A DNA stretch of 64,000 nucleotides from a virus (taxonomy: Duplodnaviria > Caudoviricetes), in IMG/VR virus record IMGVR_UViG_3300044991_001466; one strand, given 5' to 3'. The position numbers and the translations under genes were made by a program. A model generated the notes under the pieces. It searched no databases. It saw only the letters and a list, made by a program, of their open reading frames with translations, and was not told the DNA's origin. The first letter of the stretch is position 1. Each line of letters opens with the position of its first letter. Below, one piece after another: positions 23,384-57,561 of this stretch.

Positions 23384-24664
23384 ATGAATTTCTTATTTGA
23401 AGATTTTGATAATTGGGGAAATTTAATTTCATGTGAAGATGTAAATCCGTCTGGAATAAAAAGATTTACAAGGTCACCACTATTAAATGCTGCTAGTATT
23501 TACCATTCATTTAATAAATTGGATAACTTTATTCAATATAAAAATTCAGATGAAAATGTTGACGGTTACTACATCATATCTTTAGGTGTTAATCACAGCC
23601 CTGAAGATTGGACTGGATATAACTCAAACAAAAAAAGTCTATTCTCATATATTAGTGAGAAATATTTAACCGATATTAAAATAGGTAAAGCATTCTTACT
23701 GATTGACCAAAGTTTTGAAGGTTATCAATCTTCTTGGTTATGGGATTGGTTTCATACAGAATGTAGTATATTCGACATACCACCTAAACAAATTATATAT
23801 GTAACGGGTAATATGATTGTTGATGTGTTCTATAATGATTGGGCAAACACTAATAACATTTCTGAACGAATTAAAGTTGTTGGTTATTCTCATTTTGAAT
23901 TAGATATGGCAATGGAGTGTTATCGAAAAGGTGAGACTGAAAATCCATTACACACTTTTAATGAAAATTTAAATTATAAGATTGATAATGTTGATAAAAT
24001 AAAAACATACGCGTGTTTAAACAAAAGATTAAGAAATCATAGAATATGGTTTTATAAATATCTATACCATTCAGGTCTATTGGAAAAAGGGTTGGTTAGT
24101 ATGAATAAGTTTGGGGAATACAATCATTATTTCGAAGGTAAAGAAATGAGTAAGTTAGAAGTTTCAATTATTACTAAAAACTTACCTTTATTGGTTTATG
24201 ATAAACGTAATGATGAACTTGACGATAATTTTTACATTAGAAGATTTAATGATGAAGTTTGTTTAGATACCTATATGACAGTTATCAGCGAAGCTCAATG
24301 TAATGATAGTGATAACACCATGTTTTTAAGTGAAAAAACATTTAAAGTCATTGCTTGTAGACATCCTTTTATTATCATGGGAAATAAAGATAGTATGAGA
24401 ATGATGAGGGAAATTGGTTATAAAACATTTGATGGTTTTATAGATGAAGGATATGATAATTTACCGGCACATGATAGATTACAATATATTGTTGAATCTA
24501 TAAGAAAGGTGGATAACATTAAAGATAAAATTGAATGGTATAAGTCAATGGAAGATATTTTGGAATACAACTATAATACACTGATAAATAAACTATATAA
24601 AATACCTAAAGAGTTTAACGATATTCGTAAATATTGTCAAACTATATATAAAAAAATGTTATAA
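23384..24664 (+). CDS. 'TEK-family' putative glycosyltransferase (GT10-like C-terminus), paralogue 1
   Basis: LNKRLRNHR, VISE, FLSEKTFK...HPFIIMG, GYKTFDGFIDEGYD. Confidence 0.55.
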   Translation: MNFLFEDFDNWGNLISCEDVNPSGIKRFTRSPLLNAASIYHSFNKLDNFIQYKNSDENVDGYYIISLGVNHSPEDWTGYNSNKKSLFSYISEKYLTDIKIGKAFLLIDQSFEGYQSSWLWDWFHTECSIFDIPPKQIIYVTGNMIVDVFYNDWANTNNISERIKVVGYSHFELDMAMECYRKGETENPLHTFNENLNYKIDNVDKIKTYACLNKRLRNHRIWFYKYLYHSGLLEKGLVSMNKFGEYNHYFEGKEMSKLEVSIITKNLPLLVYDKRNDELDDNFYIRRFNDEVCLDTYMTVISEAQCNDSDNTMFLSEKTFKVIACRHPFIIMGNKDSMRMMREIGYKTFDGFIDEGYDNLPAHDRLQYIVESIRKVDNIKDKIEWYKSMEDILEYNYNTLINKLYKIPKEFNDIRKYCQTIYKKML

Positions 24665-25643: not shown

Positions 25644-26081
25644 ATGGAACAAAGAAGATTTTTACCAACGTTATCGGAATTAATAGATAGATTATCTATT
25701 GTGCAATTAAAAGAAGTTTTTATAACTGACCATAAAAAAGAATATGCACAAGAAATATCAGACATCACACATGACATTCAATTAATACTTGAAGAGAAAG
25801 ATGTTGTTATTACTGGTGAAATGTTAAGAGCGGTTATTGTTTGTTCTCAGATGAATTTACATATTTGGCATAACGAATCTAATGTAAGAAGTGGTAAAGA
25901 AGGTCCAAGTAAATTGGCGTTAACTCATGGTCTTAATGGTATAAGAAATACCGCCAAAAACAAAATTCAAGAAGTAGTTGGCGGTAGAAAAGACTATAAG
26001 ATTGATTGTATAGCCGCAGATTTTAAAGATTGGGAAATTAGTTGGAATAATACAACTCAGGATACTCAACAACAAGGTTAA
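25644..26081 (+). CDS. Hypothetical helical protein (DUF6165-like N-terminus)
   Basis: LSELIDRLSIVQLK motif; its 3' end overlaps the convergent gene by 44 nt. Confidence 0.55.
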   Translation: MEQRRFLPTLSELIDRLSIVQLKEVFITDHKKEYAQEISDITHDIQLILEEKDVVITGEMLRAVIVCSQMNLHIWHNESNVRSGKEGPSKLALTHGLNGIRNTAKNKIQEVVGGRKDYKIDCIAADFKDWEISWNNTTQDTQQQG

Positions 26082-26586
26082 TACCACCTTTTTCATACGC
26101 ATTCCTATAAACATCTTCGATTGTGTCCCACTTGGTTAAATCATAGATACCAATGTTGGGACACATTGATTTAAATTCGTTAATATAGTTTCCTCTATGT
26201 TGATGACCAGGGTCTAACGGTTTATCTGAACCTTTACCTAATCGTATAATCATATTTGGATTCCATTCTCCTTTACTCATCAACCCAATTTTATCAACGT
26301 GGTTGATTAATTGATTTGCAGCACAAATAATAAAATCCCACCTTGGATAAAATGTAATTACAAATTTACCGGCCATTGCCATACCTAACGACATTCCCAT
26401 TTGAGATTCTTCCATAACCGGTAACTCAATCATTTTTTCTTTTGGTACATCACCTATAGTTGTACTCATAGGATTACCGTGCCAAAGGACTTGTTGACCA
26501 ATAAAAACTGTATCTTCTTGTTGACCAAGGTATGTCATTGAATTAGTTAGTGCGTCCTTATATGGGGTGTATTCTGGTTGACTCAT
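26038..26586 (-). CDS. TPP-enzyme beta subunit, pyrimidine-binding domain only (E1-beta/transketolase-like)
   Basis: FIGQQV, ELPVMEESQMGMSLGMAMAG, FIICAANQLINH, GHQH; 182 aa with no C-terminal domain. Confidence 0.8.
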   Translation of the reverse strand: MSQPEYTPYKDALTNSMTYLGQQEDTVFIGQQVLWHGNPMSTTIGDVPKEKMIELPVMEESQMGMSLGMAMAGKFVITFYPRWDFIICAANQLINHVDKIGLMSKGEWNPNMIIRLGKGSDKPLDPGHQHRGNYINEFKSMCPNIGIYDLTKWDTIEDVYRNAYEKGGINLVVEYPELYYSN

Positions 26587-27413
26587 TTTAAATCTTTTTC
26601 TATGTTTTCAATTATGTTTTTTGCAATTATTTCGTGACATTCTTTAGAAGGATGATGATCATCAGGTGGGGTCTTACCAAAATGTTCTGTATCAAATTTT
26701 ATTCTAAGATGTGAAAAATTATCTTGTAATTCTCTTATTGTTAAGTGTTCAATATCGTTATGTTTTAATTTAATAAATCTTTCATTTAAAAAATCGTCTT
26801 TTAATATGTCTGGAACTAAATTATCTTCCCACGCTAATATTCGGGTTTTAATACCCTTTCCTTCGTAAAACTTTAATTCTTTTTTTAATCTAGCAATTTG
26901 TTTTTGTGTGTGATCAACAATCCAATCATCAAAGGTCATATTGTTTTTATCCATCCAATTAAAAAATTTCTCACTATTCCAACCAATATCTTTACTGTGT
27001 GGCCAAACACTAGCATGTTCAATTACTCCCTGATCAATGAAATAAAATTTGTTTCTCCAAATTTGAGATAATTGAATTACAATGTAATCAAAATCATCAT
27101 AATCATATCTTTCAGTTGAAAGATGTTTATTAGCATCAATGTTATCTTTAAAGTTGAATATTGTTTGAAAAAAATCAAATGTTTCATCTTCACAACCACC
27201 GTTCATCTTTTTAAACACTTCAAATGTTTTAAAATGGTTTGCAATTAATCTTGGGTATCTTAAAGTATCTCTATATTTTCTGTGTGCGTCATTAACGCTT
27301 TTATCGTTATATGTATATTCATTTACTGGATAAACCAATCTATTTAATTCTGAATAAAAATATAATCCTTGACCCCATGTGAATGAACAACCCCCAAATA
27401 AAATTCCTTTCAT
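26583..27413 (-). CDS. SGNH/GDSL-like protein
   Basis: LFGGCSFTWGQG; DDHHPSKECHEIIA. Confidence 0.6.
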   Translation of the reverse strand: MKGILFGGCSFTWGQGLYFYSELNRLVYPVNEYTYNDKSVNDAHRKYRDTLRYPRLIANHFKTFEVFKKMNGGCEDETFDFFQTIFNFKDNIDANKHLSTERYDYDDFDYIVIQLSQIWRNKFYFIDQGVIEHASVWPHSKDIGWNSEKFFNWMDKNNMTFDDWIVDHTQKQIARLKKELKFYEGKGIKTRILAWEDNLVPDILKDDFLNERFIKLKHNDIEHLTIRELQDNFSHLRIKFDTEHFGKTPPDDHHPSKECHEIIAKNIIENIEKDLK

Positions 27414-27419
27414 GTTTTA

Positions 27420-28391
27420 TTAATTAAATTCTTCTTTATTTTCTATATACCAAATATACGCCAATTTAAGTCCAACCTCAAGGTTTGTTTTAGCTTCCCA
27501 ACCCAAATTTTCTTTAATTTTATTAGAATCTATTCTACGTGTTGGTATCATAGATGGTTTACCTTGTATGTATTCTGTAGGCGCTTCATAATCAACAATG
27601 TGTTTCATTTTTTCTAATACATCGTTTACCGAATAAACCTCGTTTGAACCTACATTATATACTTGAAACATTTCAGTTTCTTTTTCCATAACAATTTGTA
27701 ACGCTTCAACAAAATCTTCAATATAAAGTAAATCTCTTAATTCACTACCATCACCCCATACAGGAATTGGATTCATTTTATCTGCAACTTTACGAATGGT
27801 TGCCGGAGTTACGTGACATTTGTTAAAATCATACTTATCGTGAGGACCAAATAAATTCGCAGGTCTAATAACCGTACATTTCATTTTTACAGGTAGATAC
27901 TTACCATATAACTCACATTGAACTTCAGCATAACGTTTCATCCAACCAACAGGGAAGTAAACAGGGTAAGGTTCATTAAACAAGAAATCAGTCTCAACAA
28001 CGGGTTCATCACCTTTAGGTGGATAAACTGTGTTAGATGATAAGAAAATGTAATGTTGAACTTTATTTCTCCAACTGGCATCAATTAAGAAGTTATTCAT
28101 TGCGACATTTGGGGTAACATGAGCTAACGGGTCTACCACAGTGTCAACCGCGTTTGAAGTTGAAGCGGCTGCGTGAAAAACAACATTAACACCTTCAGTT
28201 GCCTCTCGACATCCTTGATATGTTTGTAAATCATGTTGAGTATATTCTACATTATCGTATTTAGTTCTAACACCACGTTTGTGTAAATTAACTCTTAAAT
28301 TTGTATATCCTTCCTTTATTAATCTTGCGGTTAAATTTTGACCTACTAATCCCGAACCACCAGTGATTAATATTTTAGAATTCTTATTCAT
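27420..28391 (-). CDS. Extended SDR, GDP-L-fucose-synthase-like, with non-canonical active site
   Basis: ITGGSGLVG; IRPANLFGPHD...HVTPATI; VWGDGSELRDLLYIED; the YxxxK motif reads VGWMK. Confidence 0.8.
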   Translation of the reverse strand: MNKNSKILITGGSGLVGQNLTARLIKEGYTNLRVNLHKRGVRTKYDNVEYTQHDLQTYQGCREATEGVNVVFHAAASTSNAVDTVVDPLAHVTPNVAMNNFLIDASWRNKVQHYIFLSSNTVYPPKGDEPVVETDFLFNEPYPVYFPVGWMKRYAEVQCELYGKYLPVKMKCTVIRPANLFGPHDKYDFNKCHVTPATIRKVADKMNPIPVWGDGSELRDLLYIEDFVEALQIVMEKETEMFQVYNVGSNEVYSVNDVLEKMKHIVDYEAPTEYIQGKPSMIPTRRIDSNKIKENLGWEAKTNLEVGLKLAYIWYIENKEEFN

Positions 28392-28414
28392 TGTTTTATT
28401 TTTAATTATGTTAT

Positions 28415-30061
28415 TTAATTTGCAACCCGACTTTTGTCAAAAAAATCTTTTTTATATATGAAATCGATAAATGTGAATCGTCTGAAATTATTTTTAACAG
28501 CCTCAACTGCATGTTCAGGATTGTTTTCAGTAAAGTCTAATATACAGAAATTATCGTTTATTGGTAAAACCGTTGTTTGTATTTTATTTTCCTCTATAAT
28601 TAATTGACCACCACCATCATTATAATCTTTTTCGTAAGATAAGTAAATCAATATCACACTAATTCTACCTTCATTTTTTCCATCTCTATGTTTTTCAATA
28701 AAATCACCATTCTCATATAAAGTAAAATTGGAAACATGGGACATATTACCAATATATTCTGGATATAATTTACCCATTAAATTCTCAGAAATCTTCTCAA
28801 AATATTCTTTTAATCTATCCAATGTGTAACTTGGTCCTTGACTTTCCCACCAACGTTGTCCAATCTTACGATTATTTTCAATAATATATTGTTCTCTTAA
28901 TGGTATTTCTTCTTCAGTAAGAAGTATTTTATAATTTTCCTGCGGGCTATAAATGTTATAATCTAAACGGTATTTGTAAATGTCCTTAGTTTCGGAAGAC
29001 TTAAATAATAAATCAATCTTTTCAAAGAATTCATCTTTGTTTGTTGTTAATTCATTTGTGTTGCCAACATAATAACCAGATTTTAAAAAATCATTAATAC
29101 TAACACTAATACCATCTACAGGTTCCAATTTACAATAATAAGAATAAACTTTATTTAGTCCATCTTTAAATGATGTTTTAGGAAATAATCCATATAGATT
29201 TTGTTTGGTGACATCCATTTGTCTTCTTAAATCACCGTTTGGTTTGCTTGGGTCCCAAATAATTTTAATTGTTTTATTACTAGAAAGAATTAAACTTTCC
29301 ACCATAGATTTAATAGTAATTTCTTCACCCGAACCAAAATTTACAATATCATTTATTTGTTTATCGTACATTTGATAAATTGCATCTGCAACATCTTCTC
29401 CATAAACAAAATCCCTAATCGGACTTCCATCACCCCAACATTCTATTGTATCGTCCGAGTGATAAACTTTTTTAACCGTACTAGATATTACGGTACCTCC
29501 GCCAGTAAAATCATCATATTCACCGTATATGTTTGCTGGTCTAATTATTGACCATTTTTTATATCCATATTGAACTTTATATGCTTCTAATAATAGTTCA
29601 CCCATCCTTTTAGACCATGATGGAAACCAATCATGTTCAGATGGTAATGTTTTCCACACATCATCCTCAACAAATTTCTCAGAAGGAGCGTAGACACCAA
29701 CAGAACTCATAAAAACTAACCAAATATCCATTTTTGAACATTGATTAATTAATTCAGTATTGATTTTAAATGAAGGATAAAGAAAATCTACCGGAGATTC
29801 TTTGGCCCTTATTGGTGACCCCTTAACACCAAACGCGTTTACAACAACATCTGGTTTATGTCTGTTTAATACATCTCTAATATTATTATCTACAGTTAAA
29901 TCTAAACATTCATATTTAAATTTATCTTCATGTTCGTAAAATATTTTAATTTGTATTGGTTTAATGTCAACGCCAACAACAATAAAATCTTCTTTTAAAA
30001 ATTTCTTTATTAAATAAGTTCCCACTAAACCAGAACATCCGGTTATTAATACTGTTTTCAT
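28415..30061 (-). CDS. Fusion: GDP-fucose-synthase-like SDR + 2OG-Fe(II) oxygenase
   Basis: ITGCSGLVG, PSWSK, RPANIYG, WGDGSPIRDFVY in the N-terminal part; C-terminal FTLYENGDFIEKHRDG...YLS...GGQL...HAVEAV...RFTF (HxD...H...R). Confidence 0.8.
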   Translation of the reverse strand: MKTVLITGCSGLVGTYLIKKFLKEDFIVVGVDIKPIQIKIFYEHEDKFKYECLDLTVDNNIRDVLNRHKPDVVVNAFGVKGSPIRAKESPVDFLYPSFKINTELINQCSKMDIWLVFMSSVGVYAPSEKFVEDDVWKTLPSEHDWFPSWSKRMGELLLEAYKVQYGYKKWSIIRPANIYGEYDDFTGGGTVISSTVKKVYHSDDTIECWGDGSPIRDFVYGEDVADAIYQMYDKQINDIVNFGSGEEITIKSMVESLILSSNKTIKIIWDPSKPNGDLRRQMDVTKQNLYGLFPKTSFKDGLNKVYSYYCKLEPVDGISVSINDFLKSGYYVGNTNELTTNKDEFFEKIDLLFKSSETKDIYKYRLDYNIYSPQENYKILLTEEEIPLREQYIIENNRKIGQRWWESQGPSYTLDRLKEYFEKISENLMGKLYPEYIGNMSHVSNFTLYENGDFIEKHRDGKNEGRISVILIYLSYEKDYNDGGGQLIIEENKIQTTVLPINDNFCILDFTENNPEHAVEAVKNNFRRFTFIDFIYKKDFFDKSRVAN

Positions 30062-31320
30062 TTTATTTCTTTATTTACTAGGTAGTCAAAAAAGTAATTA
30101 ACATCTTTAGTTGATCTAAAAATGTTTAATACCGCCTGTTTATTTTTTTCAAATCGTTCAATGTTATTGTTATAAAATTCAATAACTTTATCTTTATTAT
30201 CGTTTAATCGTTTAATTTCATCTAAGACCATAAAAAATCTTTTTCTAATATCAGGCTCTCTATCGTAACTATGATCTATAAAATCATCAAAAACATCAAA
30301 CCCATGTAACTCTCTCAGATACCTTACGTGTCTTTGTGATGATAAAAAAATTGGTAATTGATAAAAATAAAATGGTTTTAATGATTTTTCGGTAATGTGT
30401 ACCGCATCATAATGATAATTAGATTCAGTTACTATATTAACATACGTATTTTCAAATGTTTTAGTTTCATAAATTTTTTCCCAATTAAATGACCCTAAAA
30501 CCTCCTCAGCTTCAAACCACCCCGACTCCTCTTCATATTTACTTCGTTTAATATCAATAGAATCAAAATAATCAATTTCGGGTTTTAATTCTATAATATC
30601 TTCATCATGTAAAATTCCGTTATAAAAATAGGTTAATGTTTTTTGTCTCTTAGCCCACCCCATAATAAGTGACCAATCCACATTTTCTAATATCCCAAGT
30701 TTCATTAACATTACCAATAAAGTATATCTATGTGTTTTGGGTGACCTATTGTGACACATAAAAAACCCTTCCTTATCTTTTACATATTTTGAATTTTGAA
30801 ATGACAAATGTCGAGCAATAAATTTTAATAAAAATCCTGATGAATAAACATTAAGTTTTGTTCCAGTTTTAAATTTTAATATTTCCATTTCGGCATTATT
30901 GTTAATAACAAATATCCGACTTAAATCAAAACCTTTTTTGGTAAAATAAGAATCAATATATAATAAATAATCTTCAGTTTCATATTCATGTTCGTTTAAA
31001 AATATGATATTGAAATTATTACATGATAAAAAACATTCCCCAACAATTTCAGGTAAAGGAATTGTTTTATATTCTTTAAATGTATTATGGACATTACCAA
31101 TCCCGTTTATAAAATAAAAATAATTCTCATCAGGGTTTTTGTAAACGTCTTCAATCTTACATTTATTCATTCGATGATATATTTTATGACTTGAATCGTC
31201 ATAAAATCTAAAAAACCCATCTAAAATCCTAAACCTATTTGGTTGTGTTGTGTTAAGTAAATTAGGTTGTGTTTCACCATCCACCCAATTATCGTAAACT
31301 ACATTTAAAATATCACCCAT
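30058..31320 (-). CDS. 'TEK-family' putative glycosyltransferase, paralogue 2
   Basis: Start moved to the second ATG (MGDILNVVYD). HNRSPKTHR, NIVTES, HITEKSLKPF, GFDVFDDFIDHSYD. Confidence 0.55.
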   Translation of the reverse strand: MGDILNVVYDNWVDGETQPNLLNTTQPNRFRILDGFFRFYDDSSHKIYHRMNKCKIEDVYKNPDENYFYFINGIGNVHNTFKEYKTIPLPEIVGECFLSCNNFNIIFLNEHEYETEDYLLYIDSYFTKKGFDLSRIFVINNNAEMEILKFKTGTKLNVYSSGFLLKFIARHLSFQNSKYVKDKEGFFMCHNRSPKTHRYTLLVMLMKLGILENVDWSLIMGWAKRQKTLTYFYNGILHDEDIIELKPEIDYFDSIDIKRSKYEEESGWFEAEEVLGSFNWEKIYETKTFENTYVNIVTESNYHYDAVHITEKSLKPFYFYQLPIFLSSQRHVRYLRELHGFDVFDDFIDHSYDREPDIRKRFFMVLDEIKRLNDNKDKVIEFYNNNIERFEKNKQAVLNIFRSTKDVNYFFDYLVNKEIK

Positions 31321-31937
31321 TTTCCTGTTCCGTAGTGCGGCCACTCTTTTTTATAATCGTACCAAATAACATCATTAGGTGCTTCAGTTTTTATTTTCCA
31401 AGTTTCTATTGTTGGAGTATTGGTTGAAACTCCATTATCCTCTACCACAAATTTTATTGGTAAATCAAAATTCTTGGCATATTTGTAATTTTCCATAAAT
31501 CCACCAGTTTCGTATGCCATATCACCAATAAAACACCATACCATTTCATCATTACCTTCCATTTTATTTTTCATAGCAACACCAACTGCAATTGGTATGA
31601 TGGCACCAACAATAGCGGACGCATAAAACTTCTCTTCTTTATTTACTAACGTAATAGACCTACCTTCTAATATTTCGTTTTCAATCCATAGAGGGTCTAT
31701 ACCTTTTAGTAATGCGTGATAATGTGATCTCCAAGTAGAGAAAACCCAATCAGATTTTTTTATTCGTCTAAAGATTTCAATTAATTCTTTTTCATTACCA
31801 CCACTCAAATGAATCGGTCCTCTTACTCTACCCGATTCCCAATGGTCTGCCATCTTTCTTTCAAATTGAATTAATCCTGCACTATCCCATAATGATTCTC
31901 TCACTATTGGTAAATGGTCATTTAAATTTTTTATCAT
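31305..31937 (-). CDS. TPP-enzyme alpha subunit (E1-alpha-like, short)
   Basis: GPIHLSGGNE, FSTWRSHYHALLKG, AIVGAIIPIAVGVA, TPP motif GDMAYETG...VVEDN. Confidence 0.85.
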   Translation of the reverse strand: MIKNLNDHLPIVRESLWDSAGLIQFERKMADHWESGRVRGPIHLSGGNEKELIEIFRRIKKSDWVFSTWRSHYHALLKGIDPLWIENEILEGRSITLVNKEEKFYASAIVGAIIPIAVGVAMKNKMEGNDEMVWCFIGDMAYETGGFMENYKYAKNFDLPIKFVVEDNGVSTNTPTIETWKIKTEAPNDVIWYDYKKEWPHYGTGKWVIF

Positions 31938-32479
31938 CTATCTCTTTTTTGTAATATTGGATTATTTGTTGGCCATTCCATTTGATATTCGGGGTCATTC
32001 CATTTAACAACTCCTTGTTCGTCAGCATCGACATAACCATCTTTATAAAATAGGTTATAGTGAAACATACAATCGGTTAATGCGTAATGTCCATTTGCAA
32101 ACCCTGGTGGAACCAACACTTGATTTCTTTCTTTTTCAGTTATCATGAAAGATTCCCAATCCCCAAATGTTGATGAATATTTCCTCATATCTAATACTAT
32201 TAAATATATATCACCAACTGCGGCTTGTACTAACTTCCAAGTTTTAGTATCATAGTGTAAACCTCTTAATACCCCTTTATACGATTTTGAAAATCTACCG
32301 TGAATACTAATTTCACTTTTTTCATAATGTATATGCCTCATTACAGGATGTTCTTCTGAATGAAAGGTTGTGAATATTTCACCTCTATATTCTCTATAAA
32401 TTGAAGGTGTAAACGTTGGAACTTGATATCCAAATACTTTTGATGGAGTTTCTATAAACTCATCCCATTTATTGCTCAT
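31934..32479 (-). CDS. rfbC: dTDP-4-dehydrorhamnose 3,5-epimerase family
   Basis: YRGEIF, SKSYKGVLRGLHY, VLVPPGFANGH, VKWNDP. Confidence 0.85.
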   Translation of the reverse strand: MSNKWDEFIETPSKVFGYQVPTFTPSIYREYRGEIFTTFHSEEHPVMRHIHYEKSEISIHGRFSKSYKGVLRGLHYDTKTWKLVQAAVGDIYLIVLDMRKYSSTFGDWESFMITEKERNQVLVPPGFANGHYALTDCMFHYNLFYKDGYVDADEQGVVKWNDPEYQMEWPTNNPILQKRDR

Positions 32480-32480
32480 A

Positions 32481-33452
32481 TTATGTGTTGTTTGCGTATC
32501 CTAAAGGAAAACCATTTCTAAATTCTGCACCCATTTTAGGTACAATCATTTGGTATGCCATTATTAATTCATTAATTCCCATATCAATATCCCACTTAGG
32601 AGACCAACCAGTCAATTCAACTTTAGTGTTTGATACAATGTAATCTCTTTTATCGGGGTCTTCGTAATAGTCATTATATGACACTGCAAAGTTTTTAACA
32701 TGAGATTGAATTTTCTCAAGTAATTCCTGTTTTGATAAATTAGCGTTACTTAATCCAACATTGAAAACTTCACCCTTATATTTGTCATAATTTTCTAACA
32801 TAAACAAAAACACATTTGCCACATCTTGAATATGTATGAAATTTCTTTTAAAACTCTTTTCAAAAACAACAATGTATTTGTCAGTGATTGCCTTATAAGT
32901 AAAATCATTAACTAATAAGTCGGTTCTCATTCTTGGAGACACACCAAAAACAGTTGCCAATCTAAAAACAATAGCGTCAGTTGAAGTCCTTAAAAAATTC
33001 TCAGCTTCACATTTTGTTTGACCATAAACTGAAATTGGTGTAAGTGGAGATTCCTCGGTACATTCTAATTGACCAGTACTTAAACCATAACCACTATTTG
33101 TATTTGGATATAAAATCTTTTTACCCTTTCCATTTGTGAATTTAACAATATTAACTATTTGTTGTAAGTTAATTTCTTTTGCTAATTTAGGGTCTTGTGC
33201 ACAAGCAGGAAACCCAACTATTGCGGCTAAAGGTATGATTACATCAACCTCATTACATAACCTTTCCAATTCCGTTTCATTACGAACATCACCATAGATA
33301 AATTTAAAATTTGGATTTGATGTGTATTGTAATAGTGAGGTTTGATTAAATAATAATTTATCCAAGACTATTACGTTGTGACCGTAATCTAACATTTTAC
33401 CAGTAATAACAGAACCGAGATAACCGGCACCACCTGTGATTAGTATTTTCAT
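32481..33452 (-). CDS. NAD-dependent epimerase/dehydratase (extended SDR)
   Basis: ITGGAGYLG, LAAIVG, PISVYGQTK (YxxxK), FRLATVFG, RNFIHIQD. Confidence 0.9.
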   Translation of the reverse strand: MKILITGGAGYLGSVITGKMLDYGHNVIVLDKLLFNQTSLLQYTSNPNFKFIYGDVRNETELERLCNEVDVIIPLAAIVGFPACAQDPKLAKEINLQQIVNIVKFTNGKGKKILYPNTNSGYGLSTGQLECTEESPLTPISVYGQTKCEAENFLRTSTDAIVFRLATVFGVSPRMRTDLLVNDFTYKAITDKYIVVFEKSFKRNFIHIQDVANVFLFMLENYDKYKGEVFNVGLSNANLSKQELLEKIQSHVKNFAVSYNDYYEDPDKRDYIVSNTKVELTGWSPKWDIDMGINELIMAYQMIVPKMGAEFRNGFPLGYANNT

Positions 33453-33458
33453 AATTAA

Positions 33459-33487
33459 AATATACGAAAAATATTATTAATTTCAAA
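33459..33487 (-). promoter_or_regulatory. Minus-strand promoter TTTGAAA-N16-TATATT
   Basis: Reverse complement reads CAATTTGAAATTAATAATATTTTTCGTATATTTTAATTATG, with the ATG 6 nt after TATATT. Divergent from the 33488 promoter. Confidence 0.6.
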
Positions 33488-33516
33488 TTGTTATTTCAAT
33501 TATTTTTAACTATATT
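33488..33516 (+). promoter_or_regulatory. Promoter TTGTTA-N17-TATATT
   Basis: 11 nt upstream of ATG 33528; back-to-back with the minus-strand promoter. Confidence 0.6.
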
Positions 33517-33527
33517 ATCACATAGAT

Positions 33528-34772
33528 ATGGATAAAATTATATGCAGTTTAGAAGAGTGGGATAGTGTTATTGACTATCATAGACCTAATGGTGCATCTA
33601 AATCTTGGTATTTAAAAGAATTAGGGGAATTAACAAGACCCCTAATGTGGGGTAATTGGGACTTATTTAATGAAAACGGTGAATTTTTTACGCCAGATTT
33701 TTTTAAAGGTAAAATAGCACCGAACATATATAATAAAAAAATAGAATACCAAACAATAGATAACATAGAGAACGACAAACACATATATGTTATTAATATT
33801 TATAATGTTTCATTTTTTTATGAAAATTTAGATATTGGATTTAGTTGCATATCTGAAAAATATCTTGATGATGTTAGAAATGGAAAATCCAAGATAGTTT
33901 TAATGTTGTTGTATGAAGGAACGTCAGGTTCTAAAGATAACTATGACTTGGAAATTATAAATAAGTGGAGAAAGGATTCTAACTTACCAACAAATTCAAT
34001 TTATTTTTGTTGTGGTAATTTATTGTGTAATCAAATCACTATAGAGAAAGGATTAGGGATTACGTCGATACCAATGTTGGATTTTGAAACATGGAACACA
34101 TATCAAGGTGATATTGTTGACTATACACCTGTAAATCAAAAAAACTTATTTTTAAATTATAATAGAAACCCTAGACCTCATAGGGTTGAATTTTTAAGTA
34201 ATCTTTTAAATGTAGATATTTTTAATAGGGGTTTAATTAGTATAGGAAAGGTTATTGATGGTAACAATGAATTTTTAATCAACAACACCCCTATTACTAT
34301 TGATGATACCTATGATTTAAAATTCAATATGGCATGTAGTATAACTAAAAGTGATTATGAAAAAACATTCATATCGGTCGTATCTGAAACATTAGTTGAT
34401 GAAGGTACTTTGTTTATAACTGAGAAAACTTGGAAGCCGATAATGGTTGGTCATCCATTTATGATTTTGGGTAATCAAGGTACATTAAAGTATTTAAAAT
34501 CAATAGGTTATAAAACTTTTAGTCCTTGGATTAATGAAGAATATGATGATATTTCAGATTCTGCAACAAGGTTAATTAAAATTGTTGAGGAATTGGAAAA
34601 ATTAAGTAAAAAGAGTGTTGAGGAATTATTAGAAATTAGGAAAGAAATGGGAGATATATGTAAACATAATCAGGAAAATTTTAATAACCGATTTAAAATG
34701 AAGTATGGTGAGAATAATATAAACGGAGATATATCAAACATGTTTGATATTATATGGAATGAAATTAGTTAA
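33528..34772 (+). CDS. 'TEK-family' putative glycosyltransferase, paralogue 3
   Basis: YNRNPRPHR, VVSET, FITEKTWKP...HPFMILG, GYKTFSPWINEEYD. Confidence 0.55.
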   Translation: MDKIICSLEEWDSVIDYHRPNGASKSWYLKELGELTRPLMWGNWDLFNENGEFFTPDFFKGKIAPNIYNKKIEYQTIDNIENDKHIYVINIYNVSFFYENLDIGFSCISEKYLDDVRNGKSKIVLMLLYEGTSGSKDNYDLEIINKWRKDSNLPTNSIYFCCGNLLCNQITIEKGLGITSIPMLDFETWNTYQGDIVDYTPVNQKNLFLNYNRNPRPHRVEFLSNLLNVDIFNRGLISIGKVIDGNNEFLINNTPITIDDTYDLKFNMACSITKSDYEKTFISVVSETLVDEGTLFITEKTWKPIMVGHPFMILGNQGTLKYLKSIGYKTFSPWINEEYDDISDSATRLIKIVEELEKLSKKSVEELLEIRKEMGDICKHNQENFNNRFKMKYGENNINGDISNMFDIIWNEIS

Positions 34773-34774: not shown

Positions 34775-36031
34775 ATGGAAAATAACACAAAAAAACTAAA
34801 TTTAGTTTACGATAAGTGGGATGACAACACAAAAAAACCAACACCAAACGGTAGTTGGGATGCCTCTAACTTAATAAACCATTTCATAAATGATTCATTT
34901 AAATACAATAAATTTGAGTTGAAAAATTGTAAATTAGAAGATGTTTATGAAAATAAAAATGAAAAATACTATTATTTTTTTACACACGGTAGAGAGGAAC
35001 TATCAAAAATTTTTGACAGAGAATTACCATTTGAAATTGATATATTAAACTGTTTAAAAGACTGCCCAAATTTTTATTTTGTTTACATTACAGAACATGA
35101 ACCAGATAATGAAAGTGGGTTCAGAATGTTACGAGAATTTATATCTTATCAAAAATTAAACGAAACACAATTTTACGTCATAAATAATAATGATAAACTT
35201 AATGAATATAAAATAAAATATAATAGTAATATAAATGTGCATTCATTGCAATTCATAGCTCACTCCTCAACAAAAGTTTTAGATTATGTTGGCGGGTGTA
35301 GTTTTATTCCTAACAAAACAGGTAAATTTGCTATGTTATTTAATAAATCCCCGAGATCTCAAAGGGCGTGTTTGTTATGTCTATTAATGAAAAATGGATT
35401 ACTTAACCAAATGAATTGGTCTTTTGTACCAACATATAATGTTAACATAGATGAAAGGTATTTTAAGGATTTATTAAGTGAAAATGATATAAATGACATT
35501 AAATCTGAGATTGATGATTTTTCTAAATTAGAAATTAAAATCAGTGATTTTGAGGAAGAAAAAAATTGGTTTAACAAACACGAACAACCAAATATGGCTG
35601 GGTTACCAAAAATAATGACAATACCAGAGTACCCAAAAAATTATGAAAATTCATATGTTAACATTGTTACCGAATCAATGTATTTTAAAAAGTATAATGT
35701 AATCCACATAACTGAAAAATCATTTAGACCATTTTATTATTATCAAATCCCATTAATATTGGCGTCCGAAGGACATGTTAAAAAAATAAAAGAGAGATAT
35801 GGGTTAGATTTTTTTGACGACATCATTGACCACAGTTATGATGGTATTAAAAATGATAGAGATAGATTATATGCTTTTGTAAAAGAAATTGAAAGAATAC
35901 ATCAAAATAAAGACCAAATCATTGAATTTTATAAAAAAAATCAAGAAAGATTTGAAGATAATAAAAGAAAAATCATTAAAAATTTAGATTTAGTTAATGA
36001 TGAATATGAATTTTTTAAAAACTTAATTTAA
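34775..36031 (+). CDS. 'TEK-family' putative glycosyltransferase, paralogue 4
   Basis: FNKSPRSQR, NIVTES, HITEKSFRPF, GLDFFDDIIDHSYD. Confidence 0.55.
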   Translation: MENNTKKLNLVYDKWDDNTKKPTPNGSWDASNLINHFINDSFKYNKFELKNCKLEDVYENKNEKYYYFFTHGREELSKIFDRELPFEIDILNCLKDCPNFYFVYITEHEPDNESGFRMLREFISYQKLNETQFYVINNNDKLNEYKIKYNSNINVHSLQFIAHSSTKVLDYVGGCSFIPNKTGKFAMLFNKSPRSQRACLLCLLMKNGLLNQMNWSFVPTYNVNIDERYFKDLLSENDINDIKSEIDDFSKLEIKISDFEEEKNWFNKHEQPNMAGLPKIMTIPEYPKNYENSYVNIVTESMYFKKYNVIHITEKSFRPFYYYQIPLILASEGHVKKIKERYGLDFFDDIIDHSYDGIKNDRDRLYAFVKEIERIHQNKDQIIEFYKKNQERFEDNKRKIIKNLDLVNDEYEFFKNLI

Positions 36032-40607: not shown

Positions 40608-41042
40608 ATGATATATTGGTTTACAGGTCAACCTGGTGCAGGAAAAACAACATTAGCTAAACATTTAGTTAATTATTTTGAGAACAACAACGTAATTCAC
40701 GTTGATGGTGACGATTTACGCGATATCTTTCAAAATAAAGACTATTCCGAGGTTGGAAGAAGGAAAAACATCGAAAGGGCTCAGGATATTGCGAGATTTA
40801 TGAGTGAAAAGGGGTTTAACGTAATCGTATCCTTAGTTTCACCTTATAAAGACCAAAGAGACCAATTTAAAGAGAATAACAACGTTACTGAAGTCTATGT
40901 ACATACCACAGATGAAAGAGGTAGAGAAGGGTTTCACGTGTCTAACTATGAAAAACCTACGGACAATTTCGTAGAGATTGACACAAGTAACAGAAAAGAG
41001 GTCGATTCGTTTATTGAATTAACTATTAAATTAAAAATATGA
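40608..41042 (+). CDS. cysC: Adenylyl-sulfate (APS) kinase
   Basis: WFTGQPGAGKTT P-loop, DGDDLR, RRKNIER, VSLVSPY, YEKP. Confidence 0.88.
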   Translation: MIYWFTGQPGAGKTTLAKHLVNYFENNNVIHVDGDDLRDIFQNKDYSEVGRRKNIERAQDIARFMSEKGFNVIVSLVSPYKDQRDQFKENNNVTEVYVHTTDERGREGFHVSNYEKPTDNFVEIDTSNRKEVDSFIELTIKLKI

Positions 41043-56451: not shown

Positions 56452-57561
56452 TTACAAATCTTTTAAAATCTCTACCGTTAAATTACCAATTTTATATGTT
56501 CCTGGTGAGTATTGTTGAACGGCCAATCTTAATGTTGTTAAAACATTGAAATCATCTTGTGTGATTTCTGATGAGATGTTAACCATCACATCTACGTCTG
56601 GTTTATCCTCAAACTTAGATTTCAAATCATATCTTGTTGTTTCTTGTTCAAATTTAATATAGTCCGTTGGTAATGAATCCGTTTTAATTTTATCAAAGAA
56701 AGGTTCTAACAATTCAACATATTGATTGTTATTTGTTGTTAATCCTAACGATATTTTTTTAAATGTAAAATCATCTTGAGTTTGATAACCTAATTGATTA
56801 AATGTTGAGATGGTTATACCCCATTTCCTAACAAAATTTCTATTTGAAAAGATTTCAATGGACTGTCTTTTATCTTTCATTTCATCACTAAATCTTGATG
56901 TTTGAGATACGAAATGATATGTGATAGAGCATTCGGTTGTTTTTAATTTATATCCTTTTAATTTTGCTCTAATTAAAAAATCATCATCTTCACAAAAACA
57001 TGGTACAAAACTAAATCCATCAAAACCACCCAAATCAACAAACATTTCTTTACGACCACTCATAAAAAATACTGCACCATCATATAGTTCACATTTATTA
57101 TTATTTTCTTTAACGTATTTGTTAAACTTTTTTTGATTAAAATTATTAAAACCAGTTCCCAAATCAAGTATCACTTTACCCGGTCTTTTATGTCCTTCAA
57201 AAATTGGTGGTTCAATCGTTGTGTATGATAATAATGTATTTGGATTCTCATCTAACAACCTATCTAAATTTTCTAAAAACCCTTTACCAATGACCATGTC
57301 ATTATGAATAAGAACCAATTTCTCGGTATCAACCAAATCAATACCAGCATTATATGTTTCTGAGAATGTTAATCTATCATCATCATGAAATAAAGATAAG
57401 TTTTCATCATCTAATGATTCTAACCATTCTTTTGTTCCATCTGAAGAACCACCACTACTAATGACTAATGGGGCTTTTGGATAAACTTTACGAAGATTTT
57501 TATAACATTCTTTTGTTAATTCTAACTTATTGTAAACGGCTAATACGAAACTTATATTCAT
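56452..57561 (-). CDS. GT2 family glycosyltransferase
   Basis: ISFVLAVYN, GSSDGT, LIHNDMV, GGFD, FCEDDDF, YHFVS. Confidence 0.85.
   Translation of the reverse strand: MNISFVLAVYNKLELTKECYKNLRKVYPKAPLVISSGGSSDGTKEWLESLDDENLSLFHDDDRLTFSETYNAGIDLVDTEKLVLIHNDMVIGKGFLENLDRLLDENPNTLLSYTTIEPPIFEGHKRPGKVILDLGTGFNNFNQKKFNKYVKENNNKCELYDGAVFFMSGRKEMFVDLGGFDGFSFVPCFCEDDDFLIRAKLKGYKLKTTECSITYHFVSQTSRFSDEMKDKRQSIEIFSNRNFVRKWGITISTFNQLGYQTQDDFTFKKISLGLTTNNNQYVELLEPFFDKIKTDSLPTDYIKFEQETTRYDLKSKFEDKPDVDVMVNISSEITQDDFNVLTTLRLAVQQYSPGTYKIGNLTVEILKDL

What the first reader, a model, noticed from the sequence alone, without database searches (positions are those of the whole stretch)
26038..33452. Minus-strand operon suggesting a branched-chain sugar pathway with a minimal split TPP enzyme
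Seen: one promoter (33459-33487) heads SDR, RfbC, a 210-aa E1-alpha-like gene, a TEK protein, the SDR-2OG fusion, a second SDR, SGNH and a 182-aa E1-beta pyrimidine-binding domain. Both TPP subunits are much shorter than PDH subunits, and no E2 or E3 is present. Established: TPP enzymes such as YerE (yersiniose A) and AviB1/B2 (methyleurekanate) transfer a two-carbon unit from pyruvate onto NDP-4-keto-6-deoxysugars. Inference: the operon makes a C4-branched deoxysugar.
Basis: partly seen in the sequence, partly recalled or inferred. Interest (0 to 1): 0.65.

Follow-up and report, generated by a model that had tools for sequence, protein, structure and literature searches.

The report
Minimal thiamine enzyme, phage heptose operon
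A large uncultured phage carries an eight-gene operon that oxidises and epimerises an activated seven-carbon sugar and includes a stripped-down two-gene thiamine enzyme, which most likely adds a short carbon branch to that sugar; the enzyme family is very widespread, wrongly labelled "pyruvate dehydrogenase", and I found no paper reporting a test of it.

Summary
Eight tightly packed minus-strand genes (26038-33452) include a 210-aa E1-alpha-like protein (ThDP diphosphate-binding domain only) and a 182-aa E1-beta-like protein (pyrimidine-binding domain only). Both keep their catalytic residues.

They form one enzyme:
- They co-occur in 28/28 related phage loci.
- They are adjacent in 78/80 cellular loci.
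- They occur as natural ~400-aa fusions, including in the cultured cyanophages S-SM2 and P-TIM68.
- The short alpha is a clade apart from the canonical E1-alpha of the same genomes.
- Related phage records have no E2 core and no transketolase C-domain.

The interpretation needs one correction. The keto-sugar does not come from a 4,6-dehydratase. The first gene is a close relative of Campylobacter Cj1427 (GDP-heptose C4-dehydrogenase; Z 41), and the second matches GDP-4-keto-heptose epimerases best. Heptose-activation genes accompany the pair in 61% of well-flanked cellular loci.

Best reading (about 55%): a minimal E1-type carboligase that adds a 2-oxoacid-derived branch, probably C2 from pyruvate, to a GDP-4-keto-heptose-type sugar for a phage-directed glycan. 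Chemistry and product are inferred.

A fucose-synthase-like SDR lacking the catalytic Tyr is fused to alpha in one relative, hinting at a third subunit.

This scan has met the family repeatedly on other DNA, with the same reading. It is a new variant of a known kind.

The parts
32481..33452 (-). Extended SDR, Cj1427-type nucleotide-sugar C4-dehydrogenase (makes the 4-keto sugar)
   Evidence: phmmer against PDB 6VO6/6VO8, E 3e-102. The AlphaFold model (pLDDT 87.5) fits entries titled 'Cj1427 ... [quoted passage not shown] Y143-x3-K147 is kept in the window protein and all 15 phage orthologues. Enzyme function is taken from PMC10680097.
31934..32479 (-). RmlC-fold cupin, GDP-4-keto-heptose 3- or 3,5-epimerase type
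   Evidence: Pfam dTDP_sugar_isom, E 2e-31. The best solved relatives are C. jejuni GDP-D-glycero-4-keto-D-lyxo-heptose 3- and 3,5-epimerases (8DCL, 8DCO, 7M14, 7ANG) at E about 4e-34, against about 6e-22 for dTDP-type RmlC. A homologue is present in 25 of 28 related phage loci, usually directly upstream of alpha.
31305..31937 (-). Minimal E1-alpha-like subunit: ThDP diphosphate-binding (PP) domain only, 210 aa
   Evidence: Pfam E1_dh, E 2.7e-17, profile positions 7-175 of 300; NCBIfam PDH E1-alpha 95.9 bits against a cut-off of 393.85. The Mg/diphosphate motif G138-D139...N168 is invariant across 38 diverse family members, as are H43, H72 and H201. Matches phrog_34187 positions 2-198 of 405.
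30058..31344 (-). GT-B-fold glycosyltransferase, possibly GT10-like (GDP-sugar dependent). One of four paralogues in the window; the real start is probably the ATG at residue 9 (31320).
   Evidence: No Pfam, NCBIfam or PHROG hit. AlphaFold pLDDT 87.2. Foldseek hits to OtsA, H. pylori alpha1,3-fucosyltransferase with GDP (2NZX, 2NZW), SdgB and GT4 enzymes: probability 0.98-0.99 but TM only 0.33-0.43. The Atlas holds the sequence from residue 9 on.
28415..30061 (-). Fusion of a GDP-fucose-synthase-like SDR that lacks the catalytic Tyr (Pro in its place) with a C-terminal 2OG-Fe(II) oxygenase
   Evidence: Pfam Epimerase E 3.7e-37 and 2OG-FeII_Oxy_3 E 5.7e-7 at residues 446-535. The H-x-D (KHRD), distal His (PEHAV) and Arg are readable in the translation. 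The Tyr column holds Pro or Ala in most phage orthologues.
27420..28391 (-). GDP-fucose-synthase / GDP-mannose-3,5-epimerase-like SDR lacking the catalytic Tyr (Val in its place); candidate partner of the ThDP enzyme
   Evidence: NCBIfam GDP-L-fucose synthase E 4.7e-41, far below cut-off. In the alignment to E. coli GFS (1BWS), Y136 aligns with Val and C109 with Thr. Val-Lys is found in 15 of 19 phage orthologues. The homologous domain (36% identity, E 1e-59, Ala at the Tyr position) is fused N-terminally to a short alpha in P0397.
26583..27413 (-). Conserved 276-aa protein, tentatively SGNH-type esterase or acyltransferase; present in 1-3 tandem copies in relatives
   Evidence: No Pfam, NCBIfam, PHROG or PDB sequence hit. 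Invariant S10 (GGCSFT), N71-G72-G73, D252 and H254 across 15 homologues. Weak hhalign match of the D-x-H-P block to the window's own GDSL-type protein (probability 36%). Copy number.
26038..26586 (-). Minimal E1-beta-like subunit: ThDP pyrimidine-binding (Pyr) domain only, 182 aa, no Transketolase_C domain
   Evidence: Pfam Transket_pyr, E 8e-6, profile positions 5-156 of 174, 26.1 bits against a cut-off of 27. Nearest structures are PDH E1-beta chains. The cofactor-activating E59, plus R82, H96, Q129-H130 and E174, are invariant in 81 distinct phage and cellular sequences. Matches phrog_34187 positions 237-401 of 405. 39% identical over 171 aa to the C-terminal half of the natural fusion P0276.
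33453..33527 (.).
   Evidence: TTGAAA-16-TATATT at 33486..33459 on the minus strand, 10 of 12 matches. The scan found 66 such sites in 8.5 kb against 54 +/- 8 in shuffles, so this is position-compatible but not statistically informative.
25644..26081 (+). Conserved 145-aa protein of unknown function, genetically linked to the cassette; convergent with beta here and overlapping it by 44 nt
   Evidence: Homologues at 67-93% identity lie next to beta, or upstream of alpha, in most related phage loci, in either orientation. No family hit. The Atlas gives only virus clusters, with a weak DUF6165 lead.

Best explanation
The operon tailors an activated heptose-type sugar, and the two short genes encode one heteromeric ThDP-dependent carboligase.

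Shown:
- alpha (PP domain) and beta (Pyr domain) together supply a complete ThDP site with intact metal-binding and cofactor-activating residues.
- They are one functional unit.
- They form a family distinct from the canonical E1-alpha (PDH/BCKDH type) of the same genomes, and related phage records have no E2 core and no transketolase C-domain.
- They travel with nucleotide-sugar enzymes in phages, bacteria and archaea.
- The operon's first two enzymes are close relatives of the Campylobacter GDP-heptose C4-dehydrogenase and of the 4-keto-heptose epimerases.

Inferred pathway:
1. [quoted passage not shown]
2. The RmlC-like cupin epimerises it.
3. The alpha/beta enzyme decarboxylates a 2-oxo acid (most likely pyruvate) on ThDP and adds the activated acyl anion equivalent to the C4 ketone. 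This gives a tertiary alcohol carrying an acetyl branch, as E1-type (alphaKADH2) enzymes do in actinomycete antibiotic sugars.
4. The branch is then processed by the fucose-synthase-like SDRs, the fused 2OG oxygenase and the SGNH-like protein.
5. The sugar is transferred by the GT-B (GT10-like) glycosyltransferase onto a glycan, probably on the phage's own collagen-like fibres encoded in the same island.

The Tyr-less SDR may dock the GDP-sugar at the ThDP core rather than act as a classical reductase.
For: One enzyme:
- Co-occurrence on one strand in 28/28 IMG/VR loci.
- Beta lies within -7 to +109 nt downstream of alpha in 78/80 cellular loci; the two exceptions are cut by contig ends.
- Natural alpha-beta fusions of 395-408 aa, including S-SM2 gene SSM2_198.
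- Both halves hit the single family phrog_34187.

Catalytic competence: G138-D139...N168 in alpha and E59, Q129-H130 in beta are invariant.

Not PDH:
- Scores far below NCBIfam cut-offs.
- Five cellular genomes hold full-length E1-alpha genes as well as the short form.
- The short family is split from canonical E1-alpha by a branch of 2.19 substitutions per site, SH-aLRT 99.
- No Transketolase_C, 2-oxoacid_dh or second Transket_pyr in four related phage records.

Sugar context:
- Cj1427-like SDR and heptose-type epimerase.
- A GT-B transferase with GDP-fucose-dependent FucT among its top hits.
- Of 49 well-flanked cellular loci, 39 have an extended SDR and 30 have heptose-activation markers SIS, GHMP kinase or HldE.
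- Cultured cyanophage cassettes are annotated with phosphoheptose isomerase and heptose kinase/adenylyltransferase.

Acts after activation, in this lineage: neither the window nor a 95%-complete 316-kb relative has a nucleotidyltransferase, GHMP kinase or SIS isomerase.

Physical link to sugar enzymes: SDR-alpha fusion P0397 and alpha-beta-radical-SAM/SPASM fusion P0404.

Precedent:
- E1 alpha/beta pairs branch keto-sugars with pyruvate (AviB1/B2 with the non-haem-iron AviO2; Pau11/12; KbDH-alpha/beta in vitro).
- The branch ketone is then reduced, methylated, oxidised or transaminated (PMC4425429, PMC4802897, PMC12247030).
- This matches the SDR, B12-radical-SAM, 2OG-oxygenase and DegT neighbours seen here.
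Against: - No activity, product or glycan structure is known for any member, so the chemistry rests on analogy.
- I could not obtain AviB1, Pau11 or KbDH sequences, so whether the short family is their sister is untested.
- The known branching pairs are full-length; the short alpha lacks the C-terminal region that carries an active-site His in canonical E1-alpha, and its own invariant H201 shows no detectable homology to that loop.
- Only 20 of 80 cellular loci have a Cj1427-like SDR within 8 kb, so the acceptor cannot be the same everywhere.
- Both SDRs that would be expected to reduce the branch lack the catalytic Tyr.
- Cyanophages with the fused form do carry heptose isomerase and kinase genes, so action before nucleotide activation is not excluded in general.
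- Donor identity is unknown.
Confidence: 0.55

Rival explanations
1. The pair is a ThDP enzyme acting on the nucleotide keto-sugar, but with different chemistry from C4 acetyl-branching. Examples: branching at another carbon, transfer of a hydroxyacetyl or longer acyl unit, or ThDP-dependent C-C cleavage or rearrangement of the heptose side chain.
For: The nucleotide-sugar context is the same as for the main reading. Known ThDP branching enzymes differ in position (C3 or C4) and donor length (PMC12247030, PMC9306805). The loss of the canonical alpha C-terminal region and the Tyr-less SDR partner show that the active site is built differently from known E1 enzymes. SAR11 loci hold two further ThDP enzymes (ALS-like and split transketolase) beside the pair, which suggests varied C-C chemistry.
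Against: According to the 2025 review, E1-type sugar branchers studied so far appear specialised for C2 units from pyruvate (PMC12247030). A 4-keto pyranose is not a good ThDP donor for cleavage (my own reasoning from transketolase chemistry). No gene for making an unusual 2-oxo acid donor was seen in the window.
Confidence: 0.17
2. The pair acts before nucleotide activation, as a miniature transketolase- or DXS-like enzyme. It would make or extend a ketose phosphate (for example a heptulose or octulose phosphate), which is then isomerised, phosphorylated and activated.
For: SIS isomerase or GHMP kinase genes sit directly next to the pair in many cellular loci, for example NTPtr-SIS-alpha-beta-SDR-GHMP and SIS-SDR-GHMP-alpha-beta. 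One relative is fused to an APH-type kinase (P0335). Cyanophage cassettes hold heptose isomerase, kinase and adenylyltransferase genes plus a class II aldolase. Weak DXP_synthase_N and transketolase matches.
Against: The window's phage lineage has the pair but no isomerase, kinase or nucleotidyltransferase. It places alpha right after a C4-dehydrogenase and an epimerase that act on GDP-sugars. Nineteen of 49 well-flanked cellular loci have no heptose-activation marker within 8 kb. A nucleotide-sugar-type SDR is fused to alpha in P0397. SAR11 loci already have a separate split transketolase in the same cluster.
Confidence: 0.12
3. The genes are what automatic annotation calls them: pyruvate/acetoin dehydrogenase E1 subunits (an auxiliary metabolic gene for central carbon metabolism), or decaying remnants of such genes.
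For: Sources name them 'pyruvate dehydrogenase E1 component alpha subunit' and similar. The best Pfam, NCBIfam and PDB matches are PDH E1 chains.
Against: Scores are 4-10 times below the curated cut-offs. Alpha lacks about 120 C-terminal residues and beta lacks the whole E2-binding C-domain. No E2 core in related phages. The family is a separate clade that coexists with canonical E1 in the same genomes. The length and catalytic residues are conserved over at least 114 clusters at 50% identity, with fusions, which argues against decay. Neighbours are always glycan genes.
Confidence: 0.03

Closest known systems
E1-type ('alphaKADH2') sugar C-branching ThDP enzymes of actinomycete antibiotic pathways: AviB1/AviB2 (avilamycin eurekanate, with AviO2), Pau11/Pau12 = Plm8/Plm9 (paulomycose), EvdU5/EvdS3, KbDH-alpha/beta (kibdelomycin)
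   Same: A two-subunit E1 alpha/beta-like ThDP enzyme without E2 or E3, encoded inside a sugar-tailoring gene set next to keto-sugar-forming enzymes. Downstream reductase, oxygenase, aminotransferase and methyltransferase partners parallel the reported fates of the branch ketone (PMC4425429, PMC12247030).
   Different: Those subunits are full-length (325 and 345 aa; PMC4425429). Here alpha is 210 aa and beta 182 aa, with no Transketolase_C domain. The known ones come from specialised metabolism in actinomycetes and act on deoxyhexoses or pentoses. This family is in surface-glycan loci of SAR11, Chloroflexota, CPR bacteria, DPANN archaea and phages, and is linked to heptose. The phylogenetic relation was not tested because I could not obtain their sequences.
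Campylobacter jejuni capsular heptose pathway: Cj1427 (C4-dehydrogenase), Cj1430 (C3/C5-epimerase), Cj1428 (C4-reductase)
   Same: The first gene fits Cj1427 at Z 41.1 with 51-52% identity. The second gene's best solved relatives are the GDP-4-keto-heptose epimerases. The later SDRs are of the GDP-fucose-synthase type, like Cj1428 (PMC10680097).
   Different: The Campylobacter pathway has no ThDP enzyme (the word 'thiamine' does not occur in PMC10680097). Here the fucose-synthase-like SDRs have Val or Pro where the catalytic Tyr should be, so a plain C4 reduction is doubtful.
YerE, ErwE, MyGE (yersiniose-type LPS sugar branching)
   Same: ThDP-dependent addition of a 2-oxoacid-derived acyl unit to the C4 ketone of a nucleotide sugar destined for a cell-surface glycan, followed by reduction (PMC9306805).
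   Different: A different ThDP superfamily: single-chain, acetolactate-synthase-like, with TPP_enzyme_N/M/C domains. The window proteins hit E1_dh and Transket_pyr instead. ALS-like enzymes sit beside the pair as separate genes in about 10 cellular loci.
Canonical 2-oxoacid dehydrogenase E1 alpha2beta2 (PDH, BCKDH, acetoin dehydrogenase)
   Same: Homologous PP and Pyr domains; the ThDP/Mg motif and activating Glu are conserved.
   Different: No alpha C-terminal region, no beta C-domain, no E2 or E3, a separate clade, and coexistence with real E1 genes in the same genomes.
Split-gene transketolases, and sulfopyruvate decarboxylase ComD/ComE (the latter from my own knowledge)
   Same: ThDP enzymes whose PP and Pyr domains lie on separate small chains, which shows that a PP+Pyr core can suffice.
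   Different: Split transketolase keeps the C-terminal domain and a longer N-terminal subunit (274 + 307 aa in the SAR11 loci). ComDE belongs to the decarboxylase superfamily. The window proteins score best against E1 families.

Membership tests
ThDP-dependent enzymes of the transketolase/E1 fold | PP domain with the G-D-G/x...N Mg2+-diphosphate motif | tested here: met
   G138-D139-M...E-D-N168 aligns with GDG...ENN of human E1-alpha. G138 and N168 are invariant, and D139 is kept in at least 90% of 38 diverse members.
ThDP-dependent enzymes of the transketolase/E1 fold | Pyr domain with the conserved Glu that activates the cofactor | tested here: met
   E59 in 'PVMEE' aligns with the Glu of 'PISEM' in human E1-beta. 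It is invariant in 81 distinct sequences, with Q129-H130.
Canonical PDH/BCKDH/acetoin E1 (as named by automatic annotation) | Full-length alpha (about 320-370 aa) scoring above curated family cut-offs | tested here: not met
   210 aa covering Pfam profile positions 7-175 of 300. TIGR03182 95.9 bits against cut-off 393.85. Canonical copies in the same genomes are 323-364 aa.
Canonical PDH/BCKDH/acetoin E1 (as named by automatic annotation) | Beta subunit with a C-terminal Transketolase_C domain, and an E2 acyltransferase partner | tested here: not met
   Beta is Transket_pyr only. PF02780 and PF00198 give 0 hits in four related phage records, while PF02779 finds the beta gene in each.
E1-type (alphaKADH2) sugar C-branching enzymes (AviB1/B2, Pau11/12, KbDH) | E1 alpha/beta pair encoded within a keto-sugar tailoring cluster, without E2 or E3 | tested here: met
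E1-type (alphaKADH2) sugar C-branching enzymes (AviB1/B2, Pau11/12, KbDH) | Common ancestry with the characterised members, and full-length subunit architecture | tested here: inconclusive
   The architecture differs (210 and 182 aa against 325 and 345 aa; PMC4425429). The phylogeny could not be run because no tool gave me their sequences.
E1-type (alphaKADH2) sugar C-branching enzymes (AviB1/B2, Pau11/12, KbDH) | Pyruvate-dependent carboligation onto a ketone | not testable with these tools
   Needs an enzyme assay.
YerE family (decarboxylase superfamily) | Single chain with TPP_enzyme_N, TPP_enzyme_M and TPP_enzyme_C domains | tested here: not met
   Alpha hits E1_dh, with only a weak partial TPP_enzyme_C match (E 5e-5); beta hits Transket_pyr.
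   No PF02780 match in G001-G004; G001 is 95% complete.
Cj1427-type GDP-heptose C4-dehydrogenase (for the 323-aa SDR at 32481-33452) | Close sequence and fold similarity over the whole chain, with the Y-x3-K catalytic pair | tested here: met
   E 3e-102. Z 41.1, rmsd 1.5-1.7 A, 51-52% identity. Y143/K147 conserved.
Cj1427-type GDP-heptose C4-dehydrogenase (for the 323-aa SDR at 32481-33452) | Tightly bound NADH recycled by 2-oxoglutarate; specificity for GDP-heptose | not testable with these tools
   Described in PMC10680097; needs biochemistry.
SGNH hydrolases (for the 276-aa protein) | Ser, Gly, Asn and His in four conserved blocks | tested here: inconclusive
   Invariant S10, N71-G72-G73, D252 and H254, but no Pfam hit and only a 36%-probability profile match.
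GT10 fucosyltransferases (for the 428-aa protein) | GT-B fold with a GDP-sugar-binding C-terminal domain like alpha1,3-FucT | tested here: inconclusive
   The GT-B fold is clear. FucT entries rank 3, 8, 10, 40, 44 and 48 among the hits with the highest identity (12-14%), but TM is only 0.33-0.45 and OtsA, GT4 and SdgB score similarly.

The most novel reading that the evidence does not exclude
The enzyme is a three-part machine not described before. A nucleotide-sugar SDR scaffold that has lost its catalytic tyrosine serves as the GDP-keto-sugar docking subunit for a minimal PP+Pyr ThDP core. Together they build a C-branched heptose (a nine-carbon branched sugar) that large aquatic phages, including cultured cyanophages, display on their own fibres or on the infected cell.
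Probability: 0.2. Interest if true: 0.8.

Novelty: new variant of a known kind. Interest (0 to 1): 0.62.

Why it matters
- E1-type ThDP sugar-branching enzymes are so far known from actinomycete antibiotic pathways. Only one has been characterised in vitro and none has a solved structure (PMC12247030).
- This family would be their smallest form: about 390 residues in all, split or fused.
- It would move C-branched sugar chemistry into the surface glycans of some of the most abundant aquatic microbes (SAR11, Chloroflexota, CPR bacteria, DPANN archaea) and their phages.
- It would correct a widespread "pyruvate dehydrogenase" or "transketolase" mis-annotation, which could otherwise be read as a viral central-carbon auxiliary metabolic gene.
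- It gives a concrete function to test for the "LPS gene clusters" of cyanophages, whose role was left open in 2010 (PMC3037559).
- A compact carboligase that accepts ketones would also interest biocatalysis.

Tried and rejected
- **Truncated or broken genes:** rejected. Lengths and catalytic residues are conserved in hundreds of clusters.
- **Missing transketolase C-domain or E2 elsewhere:** searched in four related phage records and not found; a positive control worked.
- **Alpha's invariant C-terminal Y-P-H-x-G as the relocated active-site His loop (Y-R-x-x-G-H-S) of canonical E1-alpha:** a profile comparison of the tail gave score 6.7, against a mean of 8.1 for column-shuffled tails. No support from sequence.
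- **DNA-level search of deposited phages with the whole operon:** no match.
- **tRNAs in the window:** none.
- **Whole genome of the window:** not held.
- **The look-up of encoding contigs:** Contexts came from the search for related loci and the genome search instead.
- **First alignment for the genome scan:** too diverse, so I repeated it with 8 sequences.
- **PDB sequence searches** with the 2OG domain alone and with the 276-aa protein: nothing informative.
- **Protein Atlas** for the 428-aa and 145-aa proteins: only unnamed virus clusters.
- **Papers not held:** Treede 2005 (AviB1/B2), Huddleston 2020 (Cj1427 structure) and the primary KbDH paper. The identity of 6VO6/6VO8 was confirmed from the entry titles instead.
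- **Literature searches** for a ThDP enzyme on heptose, a short E1 form, or viral 'PDH E1' auxiliary genes: nothing specific found.
- **Tree caveat:** the tree is the quick IQ-TREE search, because the careful one did not finish. Four of the eight canonical sequences are long fused E1 forms cut to their first 300 residues.

Full report
**What is there.** The window is AT-rich (26-40% G+C) and has no tRNA. No whole genome is held for it. Positions 26038-33452 carry eight minus-strand ORFs that overlap by 4-40 nt or lie 1-23 nt apart. Pfam and NCBIfam give:
- an extended SDR
- an RmlC-fold cupin
- a 210-aa protein matching only the first half of E1_dh (profile positions 7-175 of 300)
- a 428-aa protein with no family
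- an SDR fused to a 2OG-Fe(II) oxygenase
- a second fucose-synthase-like SDR
- a 276-aa protein with no family
- a 182-aa protein that is a Transket_pyr domain and nothing else

Such matches are as common in shuffled sequence (66 against 54 +/- 8), so only the gene packing argues for one transcript.

**Setting.** The operon lies in a large glycan island. It is flanked by collagen-repeat proteins with endosialidase-chaperone domains that hit phage tail-fibre PHROGs, and by GT7-like, GT2, GT4 and GT9 glycosyltransferases, LamG domains, radical SAM enzymes, a carbamoyltransferase and an APS-kinase-like protein. Close relatives of the operon lie on 28 IMG/VR viral contigs of up to 316 kb, one rated 95% complete. 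Earlier notes of this scan call the replicon a huge uncultured lake phage. My own results fit a phage.

**The two short genes are real and are one enzyme.**
- The best 120 relatives of alpha are 209-226 aa, nearly all 209-211; those of beta are mostly 179-183 aa.
- A search of 1.84 billion representatives found 114 clusters at E <= 1e-30, mostly 195-255 aa.
- Alpha and beta lie on the same strand in 28/28 phage loci, 1.2-9.2 kb apart, with variable genes between them.
- In 80 loci from bacterial and archaeal genomes, beta starts -7 to +109 nt after alpha in 78. The two exceptions are cut by contig ends.
- Natural fusions of 395-408 aa carry both halves. P0276 is 39% identical to beta over 171 residues (E 2e-44), and at least 16 more fusions turned up.
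- Both window proteins hit the same 405-position family, phrog_34187 ("unknown function"): alpha at positions 2-198 and beta at 237-401.
- The cultured cyanophages S-SM2 and P-TIM68 encode the fusion, annotated "transketolase central region-containing protein".

**Catalytic competence.**
- Alpha keeps the metal/diphosphate motif (G138-D139...N168, aligned with GDG...ENN of human E1-alpha). It has invariant H43, H72 and H201.
- Beta keeps the cofactor-activating Glu (E59), plus R82, H96, Q129-H130 and E174, all invariant in 81 distinct sequences.

**Not a pyruvate dehydrogenase, not a transketolase.**
- Scores are far below curated cut-offs (95.9 against 393.85 bits for alpha; 33.7 against 321 for beta).
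- Five cellular genomes that carry the pair also carry canonical full-length E1-alpha genes.
- In a tree, the short family is split from those by a branch of 2.19 substitutions per site (SH-aLRT 99). The seven phage sequences form one clade (98), sister to the SAR11 and Chloroflexota copies (95). This is the quick search; see the caveats under tried and rejected.
- Four related phage records have exactly one Transket_pyr match each (the beta gene), and no Transketolase_C, 2-oxoacid_dh or NTP_transferase.

**Which sugar.**
- The first SDR matches PDB 6VO6/6VO8 at E 3e-102.
- Its AlphaFold model (pLDDT 87.5) superposes on those entries at Z 41.1, rmsd 1.5-1.7 A, 51-52% identity, six Z units above any other SDR. 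[quoted passage not shown] Cj1430 then epimerises C3/C5 and Cj1428 reduces C4 (PMC10680097).
- The window's RmlC-like protein is closest to those GDP-4-keto-heptose epimerases (E about 4e-34, against 6e-22 for dTDP-type RmlC).
- The later SDRs are of the GDP-fucose-synthase type.
- The 428-aa protein folds confidently (pLDDT 87.2) as a GT-B glycosyltransferase. The GDP-fucose-dependent alpha1,3-fucosyltransferases recur among the top hits, but TM-scores are low.

**Neighbours elsewhere.** Among 49 cellular loci with at least 4 kb on both sides:

| Neighbour | Loci (of 49) |
|---|---|
| Extended SDR | 39 |
| Any heptose-activation marker (SIS isomerase, GHMP kinase or HldE-like kinase/cytidylyltransferase) | 30 |
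| Any radical SAM enzyme (B12-binding or SPASM type) | 26 |
| DegT aminotransferase | 14 |
| RmlC | 13 |
| ALS-like ThDP enzyme, and a split transketolase (mostly SAR11 loci) | 10 each |

The S-SM2 and P-TIM68 cassettes are annotated with phosphoheptose isomerase, heptose kinase/adenylyltransferase, nucleotide-sugar epimerases and glycosyltransferases. A zinc alcohol-dehydrogenase-family gene sits directly upstream of the fusion. Heptose nucleotides are therefore the recurring theme, though not a universal one.

**Mechanism.** The literature gives a precedent:
- E1 alpha/beta-like pairs (the alphaKADH2 class) attach a pyruvate-derived C2 unit to keto-sugars in avilamycin (with the non-haem-iron enzyme AviO2), paulomycin, aldgamycin, kosinostatin and kibdelomycin.
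- KbDH-alpha/beta has been shown in vitro to couple pyruvate to ketones.
- The branch ketone is afterwards reduced, methylated, oxidised or transaminated (PMC4425429, PMC4802897, PMC12247030).

The partners seen here map onto those fates: SDRs, B12-radical-SAM methylase-type enzymes, a 2OG oxygenase and DegT. In this phage lineage there is no isomerase, kinase or nucleotidyltransferase. Alpha follows directly after the dehydrogenase and the epimerase. I therefore place the ThDP step on the GDP-4-keto sugar.

- Shown: enzyme unity, catalytic residues, family distinctness and sugar context.
- Inferred: donor, acceptor carbon, product and the destination of the glycan.

**An unexpected partner.** Both fucose-synthase-like SDRs lack the Tyr of Y-x3-K.
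- In the alignment to E. coli GDP-fucose synthase, Y136 is Val and C109 is Thr.
- Val-Lys holds in 15 of 19 phage orthologues. Pro or Ala with Lys holds in most orthologues of the SDR-2OG fusion.
- The Cj1427-like SDR always keeps Tyr.
- Tyr-less SDRs occur in 27 of the 57 cellular loci that have an extended SDR, though not always adjacent to the pair.
- In P0397 (519 aa, five member sequences), a domain 36% identical to the window's 323-aa Tyr-less SDR (E 1e-59), with Ala at the Tyr position, is fused directly to a short alpha that is 52% identical to the window's.
- P0404 (802 aa) fuses alpha, beta and a radical-SAM/SPASM enzyme.

These fusions tie the ThDP core physically to sugar-handling domains. 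They raise the possibility that the Tyr-less SDR docks the GDP-sugar rather than reducing it. This is inference from one fusion family.

**Rivals.**
- Other ThDP chemistry on the nucleotide sugar: about 0.17.
- Action on sugar phosphates before activation: about 0.12. Adjacency to SIS and GHMP genes and an APH-kinase fusion favour it. The lack of activation genes in this phage lineage and the SDR fusion count against it.
- A true PDH E1 auxiliary gene: about 0.03.

**Comparison and novelty.** The thing works like the alphaKADH2 sugar branchers but fails their architecture, since both subunits are cut to a single domain. I could not test common ancestry because none of their sequences was reachable. 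I found no paper on the short form, on a ThDP enzyme in heptose pathways, or on this gene in cyanophages. Sullivan et al. left open whether the cyanophage "LPS clusters" are functional (PMC3037559).

Within this scan the family has been reported many times on other DNA, and follow-up agents reached the same reading. Those are AI notes, which I read only after my own tests, and I do not count them as evidence. I rate it a new variant of a known kind, with interest 0.62.

Noticed in passing
window 27420-28391 and 28415-30061; P0397: Both GDP-fucose-synthase-like SDRs have Val or Pro in place of the catalytic Tyr of Y-x3-K, and Thr in place of the epimerase Cys. This is conserved in phage orthologues and seen in 27 of 57 cellular loci that have an extended SDR. 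One such SDR is fused to the ThDP alpha subunit in P0397.
   Followed up: partly
L037, L051, L053, L033, L044 (SAR11 and gammaproteobacterial loci): These clusters hold three different ThDP enzymes side by side: the minimal E1 pair, an acetolactate-synthase/YerE-like enzyme (559 aa) and a split transketolase (274 + 307 aa).
   Followed up: no
P0260, P0286, P0335, P0404: Relatives of the short alpha carry an intein (P0260), a LAGLIDADG and Myb-like N-terminal region (P0286), an APH-type kinase domain (P0335), or beta plus a radical-SAM/SPASM enzyme in one 802-aa chain (P0404).
   Followed up: partly
L129 (Synechococcus phage S-SM2, 140421-159017) and L130 (Prochlorococcus phage P-TIM68, 158701-177279): Cultured cyanophages carry the fused alpha-beta enzyme directly after a zinc alcohol-dehydrogenase-family gene, inside a cassette annotated with phosphoheptose isomerase, heptose kinase/adenylyltransferase, nucleotide-sugar epimerases, a class II aldolase and glycosyltransferases. 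The uncultured 735-kb phage records LR756501 and LR756503 have it too.
   Followed up: partly
window 56452-63992, minus strand: A second minus-strand block encodes two GT2 glycosyltransferases, a third fucose-synthase-like SDR (with Tyr), a truncated FabG-like reductase, a FabH-type ketoacyl synthase III (324 bits, above cut-off), an ectoine-hydroxylase/halogenase-like dioxygenase and a hexapeptide acetyltransferase. This may be for an acyl decoration of the glycan.
   Followed up: no
window 25644-26081: A 145-aa protein with no recognisable family is 67-93% conserved and stays linked to the cassette in most related phage loci, in either orientation. It overlaps the 3' end of the beta gene by 44 nt here.
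   Followed up: partly
window 38086-39750 and 40608-41042: A carbamoyltransferase (both domains, E about 1e-60) and a short APS-kinase-like P-loop protein lie just downstream of the divergent plus-strand genes. This suggests carbamoylated and perhaps sulfated or phosphorylated sugars.
   Followed up: no
window 23384-24664, 30058-31344, 33528-34772, 34775-36031; L001-L028: Four paralogues of the GT-B (GT10-like) protein lie in the window. The 276-aa SGNH-like and 236-aa proteins occur in 1-3 tandem copies in relatives. So the genes between alpha and beta are a fast-changing set of transferases and decorating enzymes.
   Followed up: partly
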